DNA of 64,000 bases from a virus. Its lineage: Duplodnaviria > Caudoviricetes. The notes beneath the pieces are model-generated. The model did no database searches, was not told where the DNA came from, and saw nothing but the letters and a program-made list of their open reading frames with translations. Positions 38,994 through 47,525 of this stretch are shown one piece after another. Each line of letters opens with the position of its first letter. The stretch's first letter is position 1. Where the stretch lies: positions 64,001-128,000 of IMG/VR virus record IMGVR_UViG_3300032307_000764. One strand, given 5' to 3'. Position numbers and translations under genes: made by a program.

Positions 38994-40991
38994 ATGTCAG
39001 GAATAAAACACTTATCGGACATCTTTCAAGATAAAGGAAAAAGCTTCATTGAAAAGCTTTTTAGTAAAGAATTGACCGTAACGGAAAATCTTGATGGATC
39101 TACTTTCTCTTTTGAGAGAGATTTTACTGGAAATAATATTTCTTTCTATAAGAAAGATCAAGAAAATCCTATTACTAAAGTAGATAGGATATTAATGTCA
39201 TATTATGAAAAGCCTATAAACTATATAGATGCTTTACCAGAATCAACAAAAGAAGAAATTCCTAAGGGATGGAGATTTGGCATGACGTATTTTCCTAATA
39301 CTAAACCTGTTAGGATAGAATACGAAAGAGTTCCTAAGAACCATTTAATATTAACCCACGTACTGGTTAGAGATGAATTTGGGGAAACCGAAAGGATAAT
39401 ACAAGATAAGGAAGAGCTTGATCGATGGGCGGACAAACTTGGCGTAGAAAGAGCTCCTATTATTTTCCAAGGAAAACTTAATGAGGATCAGAAATTATCC
39501 ATAATGGATTTCCTTTCTACTCCGCTAATGGATTTAAAGAATAGATTTAAAACTGAGAGCTTCTCTAAATATCTTATTTCTATTTTAAATCCAGAGATAG
39601 TTAAAACAACACTAGGTAAAGATCTTCACGGAGAAATTGATTCTTTAGTTTTCCGATTCGACGACGAGGGTAAAGAAGAGACAATCTTAGCTAAAATGGT
39701 CGATCCTGTTTTCTATGAAATGTCCAAAGATAGAAAAGCATCAAGATCCTCGCATTTTCCTAGTGACATATATTCCTTGTGTTTAATAGATGTAATGAAT
39801 TTCATACTAGAAAAGGGTGTAGAATCTTTTGATGCTCAAGGTATAGAGCCAGAGGAAAGATATATCAATTTCGTATTTTCTGTATTTAAAAGCTTTATTT
39901 ATGACGAAGGTGAAAGATACTTAGGTGTTGATTTCGATAAACCTGATTATTTAAAATCCGAAGAATTTGCATTAAATAAAGATCTAATACAAGACACAGA
40001 GGTTATTTCATATTTGGATAAGGACGAATCATATATTGATATACTTCAAATGATCCTTAATTCATTCAGAAAGTTTAAAAGAAAGCCACACGGATTTTTT
40101 ACTGAGGGACTAATAAAACAATTTAATCAATTAGTTGAAGAGATAGCTTCTTATATCAATGCTAAAAGAAAAGAAAGGATAGAAGAATCTCTAGGATTAC
40201 CTTCCTTTGTTTGGTTTAAAAAAGCTGGATCTAGATTTAATGTAGATTACGAAGAAGAGACTGAAGAGATAGAGGAAAACTTGTTATCAGATGTGTCTGA
40301 TAATACAGATATTCTTTTAGAATCTGAAAACGTTAATCCGGAGAAAGAGGAAGAGGAAGACACGTCAGAATTCTTTTCGTTCAAAGATTTTAAAAAAGTA
40401 GTTTCTACTAATAAAGAGAAAAAGAAAATTAAAATACTTAACGAGTCTAACGAGAGTGTCAATGTTATAATTGGTAAATTTCAGCCTTTCAATAATGGAC
40501 ATTTAAAAATGTGCTCAAGAGTTAAAAAAGAAAACAATCTTCCTATATTTTTATGCGTAGTACACCCAGGTGGAGATGCTAATAACAAATTTCCATTCTC
40601 TGAAGAGCTAGTTAGAAAATCTATAGGATCTTTGGTTTCCGAGAACGATAAAATGTTTGCAGGATATGAAATAGTTCCTAGCAACCTATTAGAGGATGCA
40701 ATTAATATCGTTTCAAAGAAAGCAAATCCTGCATCAGTTTGTATAGGAGAGAAGGATTTTGAAAATATGTTACTTCAAAGAGAATGGATCAGAAATAAGT
40801 ATGATCTTAACGGAGGAGATATAGAGATATTTAAAACACCAGCATGGTCTGATAATAATTTAATTAGAGATTATGTCAGAAATGGTGATTTCCAAGAATT
40901 TAAGAGTAAAGTTCCTAAATCTATTGCTGTACTGTTTAATGAATTCAATAGAGAAATGCAGGATCTCGAAAATCCTAGCGAGGATATATAA
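38994..40991 (+). CDS. RNA-ligase-like domain fused to a cytidylyltransferase (HIGH-superfamily)-like domain
   Basis: VTENLDGSTFSF (ligase motif I-like, K replaced by N), EIDSLVFR, LAKMV; C-terminal IGKFQPFNNGHLKM. Confidence 0.6.
   Translation: MSGIKHLSDIFQDKGKSFIEKLFSKELTVTENLDGSTFSFERDFTGNNISFYKKDQENPITKVDRILMSYYEKPINYIDALPESTKEEIPKGWRFGMTYFPNTKPVRIEYERVPKNHLILTHVLVRDEFGETERIIQDKEELDRWADKLGVERAPIIFQGKLNEDQKLSIMDFLSTPLMDLKNRFKTESFSKYLISILNPEIVKTTLGKDLHGEIDSLVFRFDDEGKEETILAKMVDPVFYEMSKDRKASRSSHFPSDIYSLCLIDVMNFILEKGVESFDAQGIEPEERYINFVFSVFKSFIYDEGERYLGVDFDKPDYLKSEEFALNKDLIQDTEVISYLDKDESYIDILQMILNSFRKFKRKPHGFFTEGLIKQFNQLVEEIASYINAKRKERIEESLGLPSFVWFKKAGSRFNVDYEEETEEIEENLLSDVSDNTDILLESENVNPEKEEEEDTSEFFSFKDFKKVVSTNKEKKKIKILNESNESVNVIIGKFQPFNNGHLKMCSRVKKENNLPIFLCVVHPGGDANNKFPFSEELVRKSIGSLVSENDKMFAGYEIVPSNLLEDAINIVSKKANPASVCIGEKDFENMLLQREWIRNKYDLNGGDIEIFKTPAWSDNNLIRDYVRNGDFQEFKSKVPKSIAVLFNEFNREMQDLENPSEDI
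40983..40990 (+). promoter_or_regulatory. Putative late promoter GATATATA (continues as TATAAATA)
   Basis: 14 nt upstream of ATG 41005; contains a T4-type TATAAATA. Confidence 0.6.
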
Positions 40992-41004: not shown

Positions 41005-41694
41005 ATGAGAAGAATCCTCGGATGGAGCGAGTTTAAATTATTCGAACAAGTTTATTTAGATAAAGACGAGCCTAAAGGAAATAGTATATCAGAAGATGCG
41101 TTTAAAAAAATGCGTCTTTGTTGTTTTGATATCATGGGTAAATACCCATTTTTTAGAAAACTTCTTTCTGATTTAGTAATCAGAGAAAATAGAAACCTTC
41201 CATATAAAACTATGGCAACGGATGGTGTTAGTATTCACTACGATCCCGGATTTGTTCTTGCAAAAAGTGAAGCGGAAATTATATTTGTTATTTGTCATGA
41301 GATAATGCACAATGTATTATTCCACTTTGCTAGAAAAATGCCAGATCCTAATCTATGGAACGTAGCAGCAGATTATGCTCTTAACCAATTATTAGAGGGT
41401 GTCGGAACAATGCCTAAAGAAGCTTTATATCCTGGGTGTGGATATCATCCAGATGATAAGAAGTTTGTTAATCTATCAGCAGAACAGATCTACGAATGGC
41501 TAGTTAAATCTGGTGCTAAACCACCAGAAGAACCTGAAGGAGATGGAGATTCTCAAGATTCGGAAATAACAATTGGAGATATAATAAGAGATACATCTAC
41601 TAATACTTATGGTGTAGTAAGATCTATAGACTCTGCAACTGGAGAAATTGAATTTGATCCTATTCCTAAATCGGATGTATCTAAATATTTATAA
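41005..41694 (+). CDS. Putative HExxH metallopeptidase (DUF2201_N-like), stand-alone
   Basis: TMATDGVSIHYDPGF, VICHEIMHNVLFHFAR, WNVAADYALN; CTS-like N-terminus MRRILGWSEFKLFE. Confidence 0.8.
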   Translation: MRRILGWSEFKLFEQVYLDKDEPKGNSISEDAFKKMRLCCFDIMGKYPFFRKLLSDLVIRENRNLPYKTMATDGVSIHYDPGFVLAKSEAEIIFVICHEIMHNVLFHFARKMPDPNLWNVAADYALNQLLEGVGTMPKEALYPGCGYHPDDKKFVNLSAEQIYEWLVKSGAKPPEEPEGDGDSQDSEITIGDIIRDTSTNTYGVVRSIDSATGEIEFDPIPKSDVSKYL

Positions 41695-41702
41695 AAGAAT
41701 CG

Positions 41703-42764
41703 ATGAAAGCTAAAATAATAGACGTTAAAAAAATAGTTAAGTCCCAGAAATCACCATCAGGATCCGGACAATCGACTAAGCCACCTAAAAATATTGAGGG
41801 ATGGGAAGATGAGGAAGAAACTGAAGGAGAAGAAGAATCTGGAGAAGAAGAAAGCGGGGAAGAATCTGGCGATGATAAACAATCAGGTAAAGGTTCAGGT
41901 AAAGGTTCTGAAAGAGGATCAGGTGATGAATGGGAAGAAGTAGATCCTGCTCAACCTGGAGCAACTTACAAAGTTACACCTTGGCAACAACCATCCGGAC
42001 ACACTGTAATAGGTGAGGTACTTCCTACAGGATCTTTAGGAGATGGAGATGCTGGAGATAGAGATGCTGATGCTAAGAAGGATCAATGGAAAGCTGCTAC
42101 AACTGCTGCAGAATCACAATCGAGAGGTAATATACCTGGGGGAATTAGAGCTGCTCTTAAAAGAATGAGAACTTCTGTTGTTGATTGGAGAAAAGAGTTA
42201 GAAGTATTTATAGATGATGCTATATCTAAAAGTAAATACACTCTACCATCTAGAAGATTCTTAGGTGGTGGTAAAGCACAATATGGATATAAGAGATTCA
42301 AAGAAGATTTCGAATGTGTAGTAGTTGCTATAGATACATCTGGATCTATTTCAGATAGTATGGTTGCTCAATTCCTAGGAGAAGCTAAAGCTATTGTTGA
42401 TGCCTATTCTCCTCAAGATCTTTATGTTATTTTCTGTCATACTAATATCTACAGAGTTGATCATATACAGCCTGGAGATCCTATAGAGGTAGGAAAACTT
42501 CAAAGTGGTGGTACTGAATTTTATCCTCCCTTTAAATGGACTGAAGAGAATCTTTTAGATAAAGGAATAGTACCTTCTGTATTTATTTATTTTACTGATG
42601 GCGAAGCTAATTTCCCTAATGCTTCTGAATACGGTATAGGCGAATATGAGGATAAGTGTATATGGGTTCTTCTTACATTTAATGGTGAACCTTTCAGATA
42701 TGAAGTTCCTTTTGGAAATAGAATAGACATTACTCTTCCAAACAAGGAAGTTAAAGATATATAG
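41703..42764 (+). CDS. VWA-like domain protein (DUF2201 C-terminal type) with acidic linker
   Basis: VDWRKEL, LPSRRF, MIDAS VAIDTSGS, GGT, YFTDGE. Confidence 0.85.
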   Translation: MKAKIIDVKKIVKSQKSPSGSGQSTKPPKNIEGWEDEEETEGEEESGEEESGEESGDDKQSGKGSGKGSERGSGDEWEEVDPAQPGATYKVTPWQQPSGHTVIGEVLPTGSLGDGDAGDRDADAKKDQWKAATTAAESQSRGNIPGGIRAALKRMRTSVVDWRKELEVFIDDAISKSKYTLPSRRFLGGGKAQYGYKRFKEDFECVVVAIDTSGSISDSMVAQFLGEAKAIVDAYSPQDLYVIFCHTNIYRVDHIQPGDPIEVGKLQSGGTEFYPPFKWTEENLLDKGIVPSVFIYFTDGEANFPNASEYGIGEYEDKCIWVLLTFNGEPFRYEVPFGNRIDITLPNKEVKDI

Positions 42765-42773
42765 TGATATATA
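42756..42773 (+). promoter_or_regulatory. Tandem putative late promoter GATATATAGT-GATATATA
   Basis: Two adjacent copies, ending 22 nt upstream of the AAA ATPase ATG. Confidence 0.6.
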
Positions 42774-42795
42774 GAAAGAAGAAAAAAATAATAAA

Positions 42796-44313
42796 ATGAA
42801 ACGTATTTACAATTTTAATGAGTTTGTTAACGAAGGATATCTTGAAAAGATCGGATCAAAGATCTCTGGATGGATTCAGTCTTTAAAGACAGCAATAAAA
42901 AACGGATTAGTAAGATTAATCCCATCTGGAACTAAAGCAGGTAAACCTATGGCAGTTGCATTTGATCCAGATAAAGGATCTATCGAGCAACAGTTATTGG
43001 ATTTCTTTGCAGGTACTCCTTATGCAGAAATGGCAAATGAGGCTCAAGTTCCTTTAACTTATCCAAAAAGTGAAGACGTTCTAGATGTTAAAGAGCCGGA
43101 GCTTAAGAAGATGATTAAAACTCGTCTTAAAGCTGTATTAAAAGCTGGTGACGAAGGAAACTACCAAGGTGTATTAGATGTTAAACCTATATTCATTTTT
43201 GGAGCTCCTGGTATTGGTAAAACCCAAATCGTTGCTCAAGTATGTGACGAACTAGGAAAAGAAATGTACGGGAAACCATTAAACTTAGCTTTCGTTGATG
43301 GTGAATTTGCTGAGCCAGTTGACTTTGCAGGTGTACCTTCAGTAGTAGACGTTTCTGGCCCTTCAGAAGAAGACCCATACGGAAGAGGTATTACAAGATC
43401 TAACGTATCTGTAAACCTTTTGCCTAATGATAATGGTAAAGATGATATGGGTGGAATTCTTTTCATCGATGAGTTAAACCGTATGCCTCAAGAGGTTATT
43501 AAAGTTTTCATGAAACTTGCTCAAAGTAGAAGACTTGGTCAAACTTACACAATACCTTCAAAATGGTATATCGTTGCTGCTGGTAACAGAGCGGAAGATG
43601 ATCCAAGAGAAGTTAAAGCAATGGGTACAGCTCTTAGAGACCGTTTCTCTGTTGTTAACTTTGTACCTTCTGTTACTGGATGGAAAAAATATATTGAAAG
43701 TGGAAGATTAAAAGATGTTGTTATCCCTGAGTTATTAGACTTCTTGGAATTCCAACAAGAATATTTCCACAATCTTGATCCTGCTAAGCAAATGATTAAA
43801 TACCCAACTCCTAGAGCTTGGACTGATGCTGCAATGGGATTAAGAAGAGTATTAGACGAACTTGCTACTGAAGGAGTAACTGAATTATCTGATAGAGATA
43901 TTATTAGTGCATTCCAAGTAGAAGTTGGATATGATGCTGCAGCAGCATTCTTAGATTTCTATAAAATCGCAAAAGAAATTCCTGTTAAGGATTTAGTATT
44001 GCCTTTCACTAATCCTGAAAGAGCACCTTTACCTGACGATAAGAAAGATCCTAAGTCTGGAAGACCTAGAGCTGATTATGCACACGCATTACTTTCTGCT
44101 ATCATCAGAAAAAGTAAAGATACTGAATTAACAGCTACTGAAGTGTGTAACTTTGCTACTTACTTACAAAGAGTTAATTCACCAGAATGGGGTAATGCTG
44201 CAATCTCTAATTTATTTAAAGAGCACGCTTACTTGAAAAAAGATGCTAAGGCAATCCAATGTATAGCTCCTCTAGCTGATAAATGGGGATCAGAGCTTGG
44301 AACAGAACTTTAA
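42796..44313 (+). CDS. MoxR/AAA_5-like AAA+ ATPase
   Basis: Walker A GAPGIGKT, Walker B ILFIDELNR, sensor IVAAGNR, R-finger ALRDRF, PTPRAW; CTS-like MKRIYNFNEFVNE. Confidence 0.88.
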   Translation: MKRIYNFNEFVNEGYLEKIGSKISGWIQSLKTAIKNGLVRLIPSGTKAGKPMAVAFDPDKGSIEQQLLDFFAGTPYAEMANEAQVPLTYPKSEDVLDVKEPELKKMIKTRLKAVLKAGDEGNYQGVLDVKPIFIFGAPGIGKTQIVAQVCDELGKEMYGKPLNLAFVDGEFAEPVDFAGVPSVVDVSGPSEEDPYGRGITRSNVSVNLLPNDNGKDDMGGILFIDELNRMPQEVIKVFMKLAQSRRLGQTYTIPSKWYIVAAGNRAEDDPREVKAMGTALRDRFSVVNFVPSVTGWKKYIESGRLKDVVIPELLDFLEFQQEYFHNLDPAKQMIKYPTPRAWTDAAMGLRRVLDELATEGVTELSDRDIISAFQVEVGYDAAAAFLDFYKIAKEIPVKDLVLPFTNPERAPLPDDKKDPKSGRPRADYAHALLSAIIRKSKDTELTATEVCNFATYLQRVNSPEWGNAAISNLFKEHAYLKKDAKAIQCIAPLADKWGSELGTEL

Positions 44314-45483: not shown

Positions 45484-45663
45484 ATGGAAACTTACGAAAA
45501 AATTAAAGAATTAGTAGCAAACATGGAAAAAGACATGGATGCTTTCTACGGTAAAGGTAATAAATCTGCAGGAACTCGTGTTCGTACAGCTTGCCAAGAC
45601 CTTAAAAAATTAGCTCAAGATCTAAGAGTTAATGTACAAGAAACTAAAAACGCTAAAGCCTAA
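45484..45663 (+). CDS. Histone H1-like protein Hc1 family (Bacteroidota type); absent from the ORF track
   Basis: 59 aa translated by hand: METYEKIKELVANMEKDMDAFYGKGNKSAGTRVRTACQDLKKLAQDLRVNVQETKNAKA; F..KGNK.AGTR.R signature. Confidence 0.85.
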   Translation: METYEKIKELVANMEKDMDAFYGKGNKSAGTRVRTACQDLKKLAQDLRVNVQETKNAKA

Positions 45664-45668
45664 TTACG

Positions 45669-45899
45669 ATGGGATATTACATTTGTAAAGTAAGCTTTTT
45701 CTCTGGAGAAGTTTCTAAAAGTACAGGGAAAGCAAAAGCATCAAAGTCTGAGATCTTAGTAGAAGCGGAAGCTGTTACTGAAGCTGAAACAAGATTACAT
45801 GCTCATCTTGCTGGAGATAATGCAACTGCTCATTTAGATTTCGAGGTTACTGCAGTAGCTCAATCTAAAATTGAATCAGTAGTTCATATCAAAGGATAA
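45669..45899 (+). CDS. DUF4494-like protein
   Basis: YYICKVSF...KSEILVEAEAVTEAETRL...FEVTAVAQSKI follows the Bacteroidota DUF4494 pattern. Confidence 0.6.
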   Translation: MGYYICKVSFFSGEVSKSTGKAKASKSEILVEAEAVTEAETRLHAHLAGDNATAHLDFEVTAVAQSKIESVVHIKG

Positions 45900-47192: not shown

Positions 47193-47525
47193 ATGTTTGA
47201 ATCAGAAATTAAATTACCGTTTTTCCTTAACTCTTTCGTTAGAAAGTTTTCACAGGGATATTTTAGTAAGAATGGGACTTTAATATTTGAAGTTCCTGGA
47301 TTTTCAAAAGATGATATTAAAATAGATCTTGATGGTCACGTTATGCACGTACACGGAGAGAAAGAGATCTATGGCGAGAAGTTTGAAATTGATAAGAAGT
47401 TTGCTTTAAACCATGGAGTATTAGATCAAGAAAATCCTATTACTGCTAAGGTAGAGAATGGTCTTCTTTACATCAATTTAAAAAAATCTACAAAACCTAA
47501 GCAAACTTCTGTGGAAATTTCTTAA
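47193..47525 (+). CDS. Small heat-shock protein (Hsp20/alpha-crystallin)
   Basis: FEVPGFSKDDIKIDLDGHVMHVHGEK...ITAKVENGLLYINLKK. Confidence 0.88.
   Translation: MFESEIKLPFFLNSFVRKFSQGYFSKNGTLIFEVPGFSKDDIKIDLDGHVMHVHGEKEIYGEKFEIDKKFALNHGVLDQENPITAKVENGLLYINLKKSTKPKQTSVEIS

What the first reader, a model, noticed from the sequence alone, without database searches (positions are those of the whole stretch)
41005..44313. Three-gene peptidase + VWA + MoxR-like AAA+ machine, with the usual fusion split and two parts carrying packaging tags
Seen: the HExxH peptidase (41005) and the MIDAS-intact VWA protein (41703) are separate ORFs in different frames with an 8-nt gap. They are followed by an intact AAA+ ATPase with its own tandem late motif. 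The peptidase and ATPase have CTS-like N-termini and the VWA protein does not. The peptidase gains a KOW/SH3-like tail (EITIGDIIRD...GVVRSID). Known: DUF2201_N and VWA are normally one polypeptide encoded beside an AAA_5/MoxR ATPase, and MoxR-VWA pairs remodel protein substrates. Inference: a virion-delivered ATP-dependent remodelling/proteolysis system acting on a host target (defence or translation machinery) or on head maturation; the untagged VWA adaptor may ride along by binding.
Basis: partly seen in the sequence, partly recalled or inferred. Interest (0 to 1): 0.75.

Follow-up and report, generated by a model that had tools for sequence, protein, structure and literature searches.

The report
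Split, capsid-tagged phage protease-ATPase module
A large uncultured freshwater phage carries a known three-part module (zinc peptidase, adaptor domain, ATP-driven motor), but the peptidase and adaptor are conserved as two separate genes predicted to bind each other, and the peptidase and motor carry a leader like the one phage T4 uses to load proteins into its head, so the module may travel inside the virus particle.

Summary
41005-41694 encodes a 229-aa HExxH zincin (front part of DUF2201_N). After an 8-nt gap and in another frame, 41703-42764 encodes a 353-aa protein with the rear part of DUF2201_N plus a VWA-like domain with an intact MIDAS. 42796-44313 encodes an intact 505-aa MoxR-type AAA+ ATPase.

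The split is not an assembly error or a decaying gene. Two independent assemblies share the junction. About 70-100 protein clusters and 10 non-redundant split loci keep it, with varying gaps and frames. 58 other phage loci are fused.

Split forms alone have a conserved small beta tail on the peptidase and a conserved N-terminal strand on the VWA half. Complex prediction supports binding of the two halves (ipSAE 0.83, best control 0.00) and places a conserved VWA-half motif in the catalytic cleft.

The peptidase and ATPase start with a leader close to the T4 capsid-targeting sequence, in a phage with T4-type head protease and capsid genes. Packaging remains an inference.

The fused MoxR plus peptidase-VWA pair in jumbo phages was already described (Iyer et al. 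2021). The split, the docking parts and the tags are the new variant. The scan's first readers noted the same split module in another genome.

The parts
40983..40990 (+). GATATATA promoter-like motif 15 nt before the peptidase start
   Evidence: Genome-wide, 46 of 56 copies lie within 60 nt upstream of a same-strand gene start, including the gp21-like head protease gene and most tag-bearing genes.
41005..41694 (+). Peptidase half: 229-aa zincin, front part of DUF2201_N
   Evidence: About 70 clusters of stand-alone homologues of 227-292 aa. AF2 model pLDDT 84, nearest folds minimal zincins (selecase Z 7.9, abylysin Z 7.0).
41005..41046 (+). CTS-like leader of the peptidase (MRRILGWSEFKLFE, residues 1-14)
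   Evidence: Conserved in orthologues of all split loci but one. Low pLDDT, detached from the fold. Resembles the T4 CTS MKTYQEFIAE.
41296..41325 (+). Metal site HEIMH...H (H98, E99, H102, H107)
   Evidence: Invariant in 24 stand-alone peptidase halves.
41560..41691 (+). Beta tail of the peptidase half (residues 186-229), specific to split forms
   Evidence: Conserved motif with invariant G191, G203 and D209. Absent from the linkers of fused forms. Three strands plus a helix in the model. Weak KOW match, Z 4.6. Part of the confident interface in the complex model.
41695..41702 (+). 8-nt spacer between the two halves
   Evidence: Identical in two independent assemblies. Relatives have gaps of 0-10 nt in most loci (47 and 387 nt in two) and differing frames.
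41703..42764 (+). VWA half: 353 aa, rear part of DUF2201_N plus VWA-like domain; no own promoter motif and no leader
   Evidence: About 100 clusters of stand-alone homologues.
41703..41741 (+). Conserved N-terminal strand of the VWA half (residues 1-13)
   Evidence: The start MKxKI..v.k is conserved and changes together with the tail type between subclades. Residues 1-13 are in the confident interface.
41742..41996 (+). Acidic/Gly-rich low-complexity linker (residues 14-98), equivalent to the linker of fused forms
42003..42044 (+). Conserved GEVLPxGxLG motif (residues 101-114), predicted to lie in the peptidase cleft
   Evidence: residues 104-112 run along the peptidase edge strand 69-73, and V106 touches E99, H102 and H107 at under 1 A expected error. 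The motif is conserved.
42318..42731 (+). VWA-like domain (PF09967) with MIDAS D211/S213/S215, T271, D299
42756..42773 (+). Two GATATATA motifs in tandem before the ATPase; the first overlaps the VWA stop codon
42796..44313 (+). Long-form MoxR-type AAA+ ATPase (505 aa)
   Evidence: AAA_5 above cut-off, phrog_1297 at E 4.5e-45, more than 120 clusters of ~500-aa homologues. AF2 model pLDDT 79.5. Best PDB matches are NorQ and CbbQ2.
42796..42834 (+). CTS-like leader of the ATPase (MKRIYNFNEFVNE, residues 1-13)
   Evidence: Conserved in long-form ATPases, followed by a conserved xNE|G site. pLDDT under 50.
43201..43473 (+). Walker A (residues 136-143) to Walker B (residues 221-226) of the AAA+ core
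   Evidence: Invariant columns.

Best explanation
This is a conserved gene-fission variant of the phage MoxR-associated zincin-VWA protein (DUF2201/COG3864), in a T4-type jumbo phage.

Shown:
- The ancestral single protein is encoded here as two tightly spaced, probably co-transcribed genes. The cut lies in the low-complexity linker inside DUF2201_N.
- The cut is kept across a whole clade.
- Split forms alone have a small beta tail on the peptidase half and a conserved N-terminal strand on the VWA half.

Predicted:
- The halves re-form one unit through the ancestral interface plus these two new parts.
- A conserved GEVLPxGxLG segment just upstream of the VWA domain lies in the catalytic cleft like a latency plug or substrate.

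Inferred by analogy with NorQ-NorD, where the ATPase remodels the linker next to the VWA domain:
- The MoxR hexamer grips the VWA domain and pulls on that linker. ATP hydrolysis then gates or positions the zincin on a target held by the MIDAS site.

Inferred from the leaders:
- The peptidase and the ATPase carry T4-type capsid-targeting leaders ending in the head protease's likely cutting site, and they have the same promoter motif as head genes. They would therefore be made late, loaded into the prohead and trimmed.
- The untagged VWA half would be carried in by the peptidase.

My commitment for the last step is that the set is ejected with the DNA and works in the newly infected cell. My odds for the separate steps:
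- real conserved split: 0.95
- halves bind: 0.8
- packaged: 0.6
- acts after ejection rather than in the head: 0.35-0.4
For: Split and conservation:
- Searches show the split.
- Stand-alone halves form about 100 (VWA) and 70 (peptidase) clusters.
- 10 non-redundant split loci against 58 fused ones.
- The split rows fall in one well-supported clade of 13 rows in the tree.
- Two independent assemblies have an identical junction, and relatives differ in gap, frame and stop codons.

Docking parts:
- The tail is present only in split forms, and the tail type changes together with the VWA N-terminus.

Binding:
- ipSAE was 0.80, 0.83 and 0.83 against a best control of 0.00. In the tool's calibration this mark was reached by 58 of 80 solved complexes and 2 of 110 mismatched pairs.
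- The runs share at least 71% of contacts, and the partner pLDDT is 70-71.
- The interface includes the tail, VWA residues 1-13 and the cleft.
- No DUF2201 structure has been solved, so the pass does not come from a remembered complex.

ATPase:
- The motifs are intact, and the best structural matches are NorQ and CbbQ2. The NorQD mechanism is described in PMC13036017.

Leaders:
- The T4 CTS MKTYQEFIAE packages any protein fused to it (PMC8442874).
- The genome has gp21-type protease and gp23-type capsid genes.
- The capsid protein N-terminus holds an LNE|S site, and head-module proteins carry the leader.
- The leader motif occurs in 19 of 327 N-termini against 21 of 2906 internal windows, p 7e-12.
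- The leader is found on the module's proteins in every long-ATPase locus, fused ones included, and in none of about 58 ordinary loci.
- The promoter motif is shared with the head protease gene.

Action in the host:
- In a Schitoviridae phage the fused module sits among middle/replication genes, not structural ones.
Against: - No virion has been examined, so packaging, trimming and ejection are all inferred.
- The complex result is a model's own confidence. The language model has seen fused relatives, so it mainly shows that the ancestral intramolecular packing is retained.
- Explicit tail-to-N-strand pairs were not listed, so that pairing is my inference from the interface lists.
- The cleft-plug reading rests on one prediction method.
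- The late timing of the GATATATA motif is inferred from the genes it precedes, not measured.
- Iyer et al. assign the fused pair to virion assembly, and the archaeal virus ATV has a MoxR-VWA pair cited in phage papers for tail development. Both fit an assembly or maturation role as well as mine.
- A 57-kDa ATPase must pass the tail unfolded and reassemble as a hexamer afterwards.
Confidence: 0.5

Rival explanations
1. The module is a cytoplasmic, late-acting assembly chaperone and processing protease for virion parts, as proposed for the fused pair in T4-related jumbo phages. It is not cargo. On this reading the N-terminal motif brings the enzymes to the assembling scaffold or prohead only transiently, or serves another purpose shared by late proteins.
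For: Iyer et al. 2021 propose this role for the fused pair, and they and later phage papers cite ATV's MoxR-VWA pair as needed for tail development (PMC7824862). The promoter motif is shared with head and tail genes. An HSP20 gene lies 3 kb downstream here, and directly beside the module in cyanophage S-TIM5.
Against: In T4 the CTS is sufficient for stable encapsidation of any fused protein. The leader ends in the same xNE site as the capsid protein's propeptide. The fused module of Schitoviridae lies among middle/replication genes.
Confidence: 0.27
2. The module is packaged but works inside the head. It would remodel and cut scaffold or internal proteins during maturation, beside the gp21-type serine protease, and is not meant for the next host.
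For: The same evidence for packaging applies. Giant phages show extensive head-protein processing (PMC7824862).
Against: The same module in untagged form is widespread in small phages with simple heads and in non-structural gene blocks. ATP supply inside a filling head is doubtful.
Confidence: 0.15
3. The split is an artefact, a decaying gene, or only apparent. Either an assembly indel is responsible, or programmed frameshifting or readthrough re-fuses the two ORFs into the usual single protein.
For: The gap is only 8 nt. The genome is reported by earlier notes of this scan to carry an amber suppressor tRNA (not tested here).
Against: Two independent assemblies have an identical junction. The split is kept from 98% down to about 33% identity, while both halves stay intact. 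The stop here is TAA, and one relative has TAA TAA. The frame relation differs between relatives (same frame, +1, -1), so no single recoding event fits. The VWA frame is open for only 18 nt upstream of its ATG.
Confidence: 0.03

Closest known systems
MoxR AAA+ ATPase plus metallopeptidase-vWA protein of group 2.2 (T4-related) jumbo phages (Iyer, Anantharaman, Krishnan, Burroughs, Aravind 2021, Viruses 13:63, PMC7824862); Pfam DUF2201_N + DUF2201, COG3864 beside COG0714
   Same: The same three domains (zincin HExxH, VWA with MIDAS, MoxR ATPase), gene adjacency and phage type. The fused form occurs in 58 of 68 non-redundant phage loci surveyed.
   Different: Here the zincin and VWA parts are separate genes, cut inside DUF2201_N. 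The peptidase half has an added beta tail, and the VWA half a conserved N-terminal strand. The gene order is peptidase-VWA-ATPase instead of ATPase first. The ATPase is a long form (about 505 aa against about 330-380) with a ~120-residue N-terminal extension. Peptidase and ATPase carry CTS-like leaders.
NorQ-NorD and CbbQ-CbbO (CGN-type MoxR ATPases with a VWA partner; PMC13036017, PMC9976466; PDB 9qh6-9qhg, 6l1q)
   Same: These are the best structural matches of the ATPase model. The partner is a VWA domain with MIDAS, and a linker next to the VWA domain is the element the motor remodels.
   Different: Those systems insert metal or reactivate an enzyme and have no peptidase. Sequence similarity is too low for a PDB sequence hit. 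Binding of this ATPase to this VWA domain was not tested.
Phage T4 capsid-targeting sequence of internal proteins IPI-III and Alt (MKTYQEFIAE, cut by gp21; PMC8442874, PMC3012670)
   Same: An N-terminal leader of about 10-14 residues with aromatic-x-x-aromatic and a final hydrophobic-x-Glu. It occurs in a phage with gp21-type protease and gp23-type capsid genes, on many unrelated proteins.
   Different: The T4 cargo is small basic proteins and an ADP-ribosyltransferase. Here the cargo would be an AAA+ motor and a zincin. Neither cleavage nor packaging has been observed.
Minigluzincins (selecase, proabylysin, projannalysin; PDB 4qhf, 4jiu, 4jix)
   Same: They are among the nearest solved folds for the catalytic domain (Z 7.0-7.9; an aspzincin, 1g12, ties at Z 7.9). 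4jiu and 4jix are deposited as zymogens. From memory, they are self-inhibited by their own C-terminal segment lying in the cleft, which resembles the predicted position of the GEVLP segment.
   Different: The Z scores are in the range the tool calls common, and there is no sequence-level relation. Here the plug would sit on a separate polypeptide tied to a VWA domain and an ATPase.
Acidianus two-tailed virus MoxR-type ATPase and VWA protein
   Same: A viral MoxR-VWA pair cited in phage papers as needed for tail development. That the ATPase is present in the ATV particle is my recollection and was not checked here.
   Different: It is an archaeal virus with no peptidase domain, no T4-type head and no leader-based loading.

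Membership tests
DUF2201 / COG3864 zincin-VWA proteins | HExxH metallopeptidase domain (PF13203) | tested here: met
   E 1.5e-22, 80.9 bits against a cut-off of 23.2. H98, E99, H102 and H107 are invariant.
DUF2201 / COG3864 zincin-VWA proteins | VWA-like domain (PF09967) with a MIDAS motif | tested here: met
   E 2e-16, 60.7 bits against a cut-off of 26.4. DxSxS, T and D are invariant.
DUF2201 / COG3864 zincin-VWA proteins | Both domains on one polypeptide | tested here: not met
   Two ORFs. phrog_1314 is covered at positions 9-160 by one and 162-391 by the other. This is a split derivative, not a canonical member.
DUF2201 / COG3864 zincin-VWA proteins | Encoded beside a MoxR/AAA_5 ATPase | tested here: met
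MoxR-type AAA+ ATPase (AAA_5, CGN-like) | Walker A, Walker B, sensor 1, arginine finger, sensor 2 | tested here: met
   GAPGIGKT, D225-E226, N264, R265/R283 and R340 are invariant or nearly invariant.
MoxR-type AAA+ ATPase (AAA_5, CGN-like) | Profile and fold closest to MoxR members | tested here: met
   AAA_5 scores 38.2 bits against a cut-off of 22. Relatives also carry PF07726 and PF20030. The top Foldseek matches are NorQ and CbbQ2, E about 1e-6, TM by target 0.52-0.58, ahead of generic AAA+ proteins only narrowly.
MoxR-type AAA+ ATPase (AAA_5, CGN-like) | Hexamer that binds its VWA partner | not testable with these tools
T4-type capsid-targeting sequence | Short N-terminal leader resembling MKTYQEFIAE and ending in hydrophobic-x-Glu | tested here: met
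   ATPase MKRIYNFNEFVNE and peptidase MRRILGWSEFKLFE. N-terminal enrichment has p 7e-12.
T4-type capsid-targeting sequence | gp21-type prohead protease and gp23-type capsid protein in the same genome | tested here: met
   PF03420 at 37.5 bits and PF07068 at 129 bits.
T4-type capsid-targeting sequence | Leader is cut off and the protein is found in the head | not testable with these tools
   This needs virion proteomics. The phage is uncultured, and no close cultured relative was found.
KOW/SH3-like small beta barrel (tail of the peptidase half) | Five-stranded barrel fold | tested here: inconclusive
   The model shows three strands plus a helix. The only match is the Spt5 KOW domain, Z 4.6 over 44 residues. 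The atlas search gave nothing. The barrel may be completed by the VWA N-terminal strand.

The most novel reading that the evidence does not exclude
A bacteriophage loads a complete ATP-dependent protease-like machine into its capsid: a MoxR AAA+ motor, a VWA adaptor and a latent zincin. Loading uses T4-type leaders on two of the three parts, and the third is held by a docking module that evolved after gene fission. The phage then ejects the machine with its DNA, so that it cuts or remodels a host protein before any phage gene is expressed.
Probability: 0.3. Interest if true: 0.8.

Novelty: new variant of a known kind. Interest (0 to 1): 0.58.

Why it matters
Phage MoxR-VWA-peptidase pairs are very common: 423 phage records match the ATPase. 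Yet none has an assigned function, and RefSeq often mislabels the peptidase-VWA protein as 'HNH endonuclease'.

This clade offers three handles on the problem:
- The natural split separates peptidase from adaptor, which makes reconstitution experiments simple.
- The predicted cleft plug, next to the linker that MoxR motors are known to remodel, gives a testable model of ATP-gated proteolysis.
- The leaders predict that an AAA+ motor is virion cargo. If true, that would widen the known range of ejected phage proteins from small inhibitors and single enzymes to a multi-part machine.

It is also a clear case of gene fission followed by the gain of docking elements.

Tried and rejected
- Nucleotide search of the 3.3-kb stretch against 50,697 phage records found no match.
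- Sequence searches of the PDB with the VWA profile and the ATPase found nothing usable.
- NCBIfam has no family for the peptidase or VWA halves.
- Foldseek of the peptidase model against the PDB gave no match at E <= 0.001. Only the exhaustive aligner gave zincin matches of middling Z.
- The atlas search with the tail alone gave no usable hit.
- The complex tool was unreachable five times before the job ran.
- An assembly error was rejected.
- Pseudogene decay was rejected because both halves are conserved and intact down to about 33% identity.
- Programmed frameshift or readthrough was rejected because gap, frame and stop differ between relatives.
- I looked for a general HSP20 link. HSP20 lies within 5 kb only in the close clade and in cyanophage S-TIM5, which is too little to build on.
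- Whether fission happened once or twice is unresolved. Parsimony needs two changes, but the well-supported branches allow one origin.
- No cultured phage with the split form is in the phage collection; the best match is 32% identical.
- Literature searches for DUF2201 in phages and for MoxR in virion proteomes gave no functional data.


Full report
WHAT IS THERE

The window is bases 64001-128000 of a 248-kb linear IMG/VR virus record, about 85% complete. It has about 33% G+C, and genes run almost only on the + strand in this part. The genome has a T4-type prohead protease (Peptidase_S77, 37.5 bits) and a gp23-type major capsid protein (129 bits). Near-identical contigs come from freshwater metagenomes.

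1. ORF 41005-41694 (229 aa).
- It matches DUF2201_N at E 1.5e-22, but only profile positions 16-150 of 271.
- It has HEIMH plus H107, all invariant in 24 homologues.

2. ORF 41703-42764 (353 aa).
- It follows an 8-nt gap and is in another frame.
- It matches the VWA-like DUF2201 domain at E 2e-16. It also matches DUF2201_N positions 192-261 weakly (21.4 bits, just under the cut-off of 23.2).
- Its MIDAS residues (D211, S213, S215, T271, D299) are invariant.

3. ORF 42796-44313 (505 aa).
- It is an AAA_5 ATPase with all catalytic motifs intact.

PHROG 1314 (394 positions) is covered at 9-160 by the first ORF and 162-391 by the second. This is therefore a clean fission of one family. The cut lies inside what Pfam calls DUF2201_N, not between the two Pfam domains. 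The cut point corresponds to the low-complexity Gly/Pro/acidic linker of fused relatives.

THE SPLIT IS REAL AND SELECTED

- Two independent assemblies (ERZ937545 and ERZ27292209) have the same 229 + 353 + 505 aa layout and a base-identical junction.
- Stand-alone VWA halves of about 300-370 aa form roughly 100 clusters at 90% identity. Stand-alone peptidase halves of 227-292 aa form about 70. Many lie on contigs of 100-350 kb.
- I surveyed 80 viral loci, plus others fetched along the way. The split form appears in two gene orders. One is peptidase-VWA-ATPase (this window, L003-L013). The other is ATPase-peptidase-VWA (L015, L016, L018). All remaining loci are fused, usually with a short (330-380 aa) ATPase upstream.
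- Junctions differ. Gaps are 0, 1, 2, 6, 8, 9 or 10 nt (47 and 387 nt in L009 and L018). The halves are in the same frame or shifted either way. Stops are TAA, TGA or TAA TAA. No single frameshift or readthrough event could re-fuse them.
- A maximum-likelihood tree of the VWA domain (68 non-redundant rows) puts all 10 split rows in one well-supported clade of 13 (99/94 support). The three fused rows in that clade are from very large phages (L001, L028, L032).
- The eight peptidase-VWA-ATPase rows form a well-supported subclade (98/89).
- Whether fission happened once or twice is unresolved.

WHAT CAME WITH THE SPLIT

- Every split peptidase half ends in a small conserved module after a Pro-rich spacer. 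The consensus is vGDxI.D....YGxVxSID..tGe..yDPIP, with G191, G203 and D209 invariant.
- The linkers of fused forms lack this module.
- AF2 (pLDDT 84) models it as three strands and a helix. The only structural match is the Spt5 KOW domain at Z 4.6. 'KOW/SH3-like' is therefore plausible but not established.
- Every split VWA half starts with a conserved short segment (MKxKI..v.k).
- The tail ending and this start change together between subclades. There are three types.
- In L018 a third small ORF, itself with a leader, lies between the two halves. It ends in the same tail as the L015 peptidase.

DO THE HALVES BIND?

- Complex prediction with my own alignments gave ipSAE 0.80, 0.83 and 0.83, against 0.00 for the best of three controls. 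In the tool's calibration this mark was reached by 58 of 80 solved complexes and 2 of 110 mismatched pairs.
- The runs share at least 71% of contacts, and the partner pLDDT is 70-71.
- No DUF2201 structure has been solved, so this is not recall of a known complex. The model has surely seen fused relatives, however, so what it shows is that the ancestral intramolecular packing is retained.
- The confident interface holds the peptidase edge strand 69-76, the metal site 98-109 and the tail 185-229.
- On the other chain it holds residues 1-13 and 76-155.
- The lowest-error pairs put VWA-half residues 104-112 along the edge strand. V106 sits against E99, H102 and H107. These residues belong to the conserved GEVLPxGxLG motif.
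- The motif therefore occupies the catalytic cleft in the way a substrate or a latency segment would.
- The nearest solved folds of the catalytic domain are minimal zincins such as selecase and abylysin (Z 7-7.9). Two of them are deposited as zymogens. That they are self-inhibited by a segment of their own in the cleft is my recollection, not a result obtained here.
- The pairing of the tail with residues 1-13 is my inference from the interface lists. Explicit pairs were not given.

THE ATPASE

- The AF2 model has pLDDT 79.5. It best matches NorQ in NorQ-NorD complexes, and CbbQ2 (E about 1e-6, TM by target 0.52-0.58).
- In NorQD the VWA domain inserts a finger into the hexamer pore, and the motor remodels the linker next to the VWA domain (PMC13036017).
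- Transferred to this system, the motor would pull on the very segment predicted to plug the zincin. This gives a concrete, testable model of ATP-gated proteolysis. It is inference only.
- The ATPase has two promoter-like motifs and the peptidase-VWA pair has one. That fits the 6:1 stoichiometry I recall for NorQD and CbbQO, but this is a hint only.

THE LEADERS

- The T4 CTS is MKTYQEFIAE. It is cut once by the head protease, and any protein fused to it is packaged (PMC8442874; PMC3012670).
- The ATPase starts MKRIYNFNEFVNE and the peptidase MRRILGWSEFKLFE.
- A strict form of the motif occurs in 19 of 327 N-termini against 21 of 2906 internal windows, p 7e-12.
- The capsid protein has an LNE|S site near residue 42. 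Proteins of the head module carry the leader followed by LNE|G.
- The leaders are low-confidence, detached segments in both models.
- Across loci, the leader is on the peptidase (or on the fused protein) and on the ATPase in every member of the long-ATPase clade. That includes fused L001, L032 and L044. It is on none of about 58 ordinary loci.
- The tag therefore predates, or is independent of, the split. In fused relatives it would carry the whole peptidase-VWA protein.
- After the split, only the peptidase keeps the tag. This makes binding of the VWA half to the peptidase the natural way to keep it aboard.

THE PROMOTER MOTIF

- GATATATA lies 15 nt before the peptidase start, and twice before the ATPase (23 and 33 nt).
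- Its overall count in the window is not clearly above chance: 13 against 7.4 expected, with 3 of 100 shuffles reaching 13.
- Its placement is not random. Genome-wide, 46 of 56 copies lie within 60 nt upstream of a same-strand start. These include the head protease gene, structural genes and most tag-bearing genes.
- 'Late' is therefore a reasonable label, but it has not been measured.

WHAT IS KNOWN

- Iyer et al. 2021 already reported a MoxR ATPase paired with a vWA protein that has an N-terminal metallopeptidase, in T4-related (group 2.2) jumbo phages. They proposed a role in virion assembly with proteolytic processing, citing ATV's MoxR-VWA pair.
- The module is also common in small phages. 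In the N4-like Salmonella phage FSL SP-058 it sits among middle/replication genes. There it is labelled 'HNH endonuclease', an error that follows PHROG 1314.
- I found no functional study of it.

VERDICT

- The module is a known kind.
- The conserved fission, the docking parts that came with it, the long tagged ATPase and the predicted cleft plug are a new variant.
- Packaging is likely but unproven (about 0.6).
- I favour action in the newly infected cell. The untagged module of small phages is a non-structural middle gene, T4 CTS cargo acts after ejection, and ATP is available in the cell.
- An assembly or maturation role remains a serious rival.
- First readers of this scan noted the same split module in another genome (e1-5410272, e1-5410281). 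The TAA TAA AAG ATG junction they describe is the one I saw in L003.

Noticed in passing
window 47193-47525: An HSP20-type small heat-shock gene lies 3 kb downstream of the module. It keeps this position in relatives L003, L008 and L013. In cyanophage S-TIM5 an Hsp20 gene sits directly before the MoxR ATPase and the fused peptidase-VWA gene. This may be a recurrent chaperone neighbourhood.
   Followed up: partly
window 38994-40991: A 665-aa protein with a weak C-terminal cytidylyl/adenylyltransferase-like domain (residues ~490-650) is the conserved upstream neighbour of the module in close relatives (661-667 aa). Its large N-terminal part has no family match.
   Followed up: partly
whole genome G000; window 13171, 25473, 37169, 40983, 42756, 42766, 44594, 45929, 56255, 59064, 62358: The motif GATATATA lies 2-53 nt upstream of a same-strand gene start in 46 of 56 copies. 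It precedes the head protease gene, structural genes and most genes that start with the CTS-like leader. In several cases it ends only 5-6 nt before the ATG, which would mean very short or absent leaders on the mRNA.
   Followed up: partly
L018 4338-4724 (IMGVR_UViG_3300044638_008123): Between the peptidase and VWA genes of this relative lies a third small ORF. It has its own CTS-like leader and a Gly/Pro-rich body, and it ends in the same beta tail as the L015 peptidase. This looks like a three-way split of the ancestral protein.
   Followed up: no
L028, L031, L032 (e.g. L032 1255-4247): These large phages keep the fused peptidase-VWA gene but have two paralogous long ATPases upstream, both with leaders. 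The fused protein's linker holds L-F-E|G-type sites, so the head protease might cut there and produce post-translationally what the split clade encodes as two genes.
   Followed up: no
window 41775-41805 (VWA half residues ~25-35): A short motif PxNxExW, with P28 invariant, is conserved in the otherwise low-complexity linker of the VWA halves. It is not part of the predicted peptidase interface, and its role is unexplained.
   Followed up: no
L087 6932-8068 (NC_021772.1), L088 5927-7075 (NC_019516.2), NC_023719.1 gp576: RefSeq and PHROG 1314 label the zincin-VWA protein as 'HNH endonuclease'. The proteins match DUF2201_N plus DUF2201 and have an HExxH zincin site, so the label appears to be a propagated annotation error.
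   Followed up: partly
window 45484-45899: Small genes downstream of the module are called Hc1 histone-like (59 aa) and DUF4494 (76 aa) in the precomputed Pfam hits of orthologous loci.
   Followed up: no
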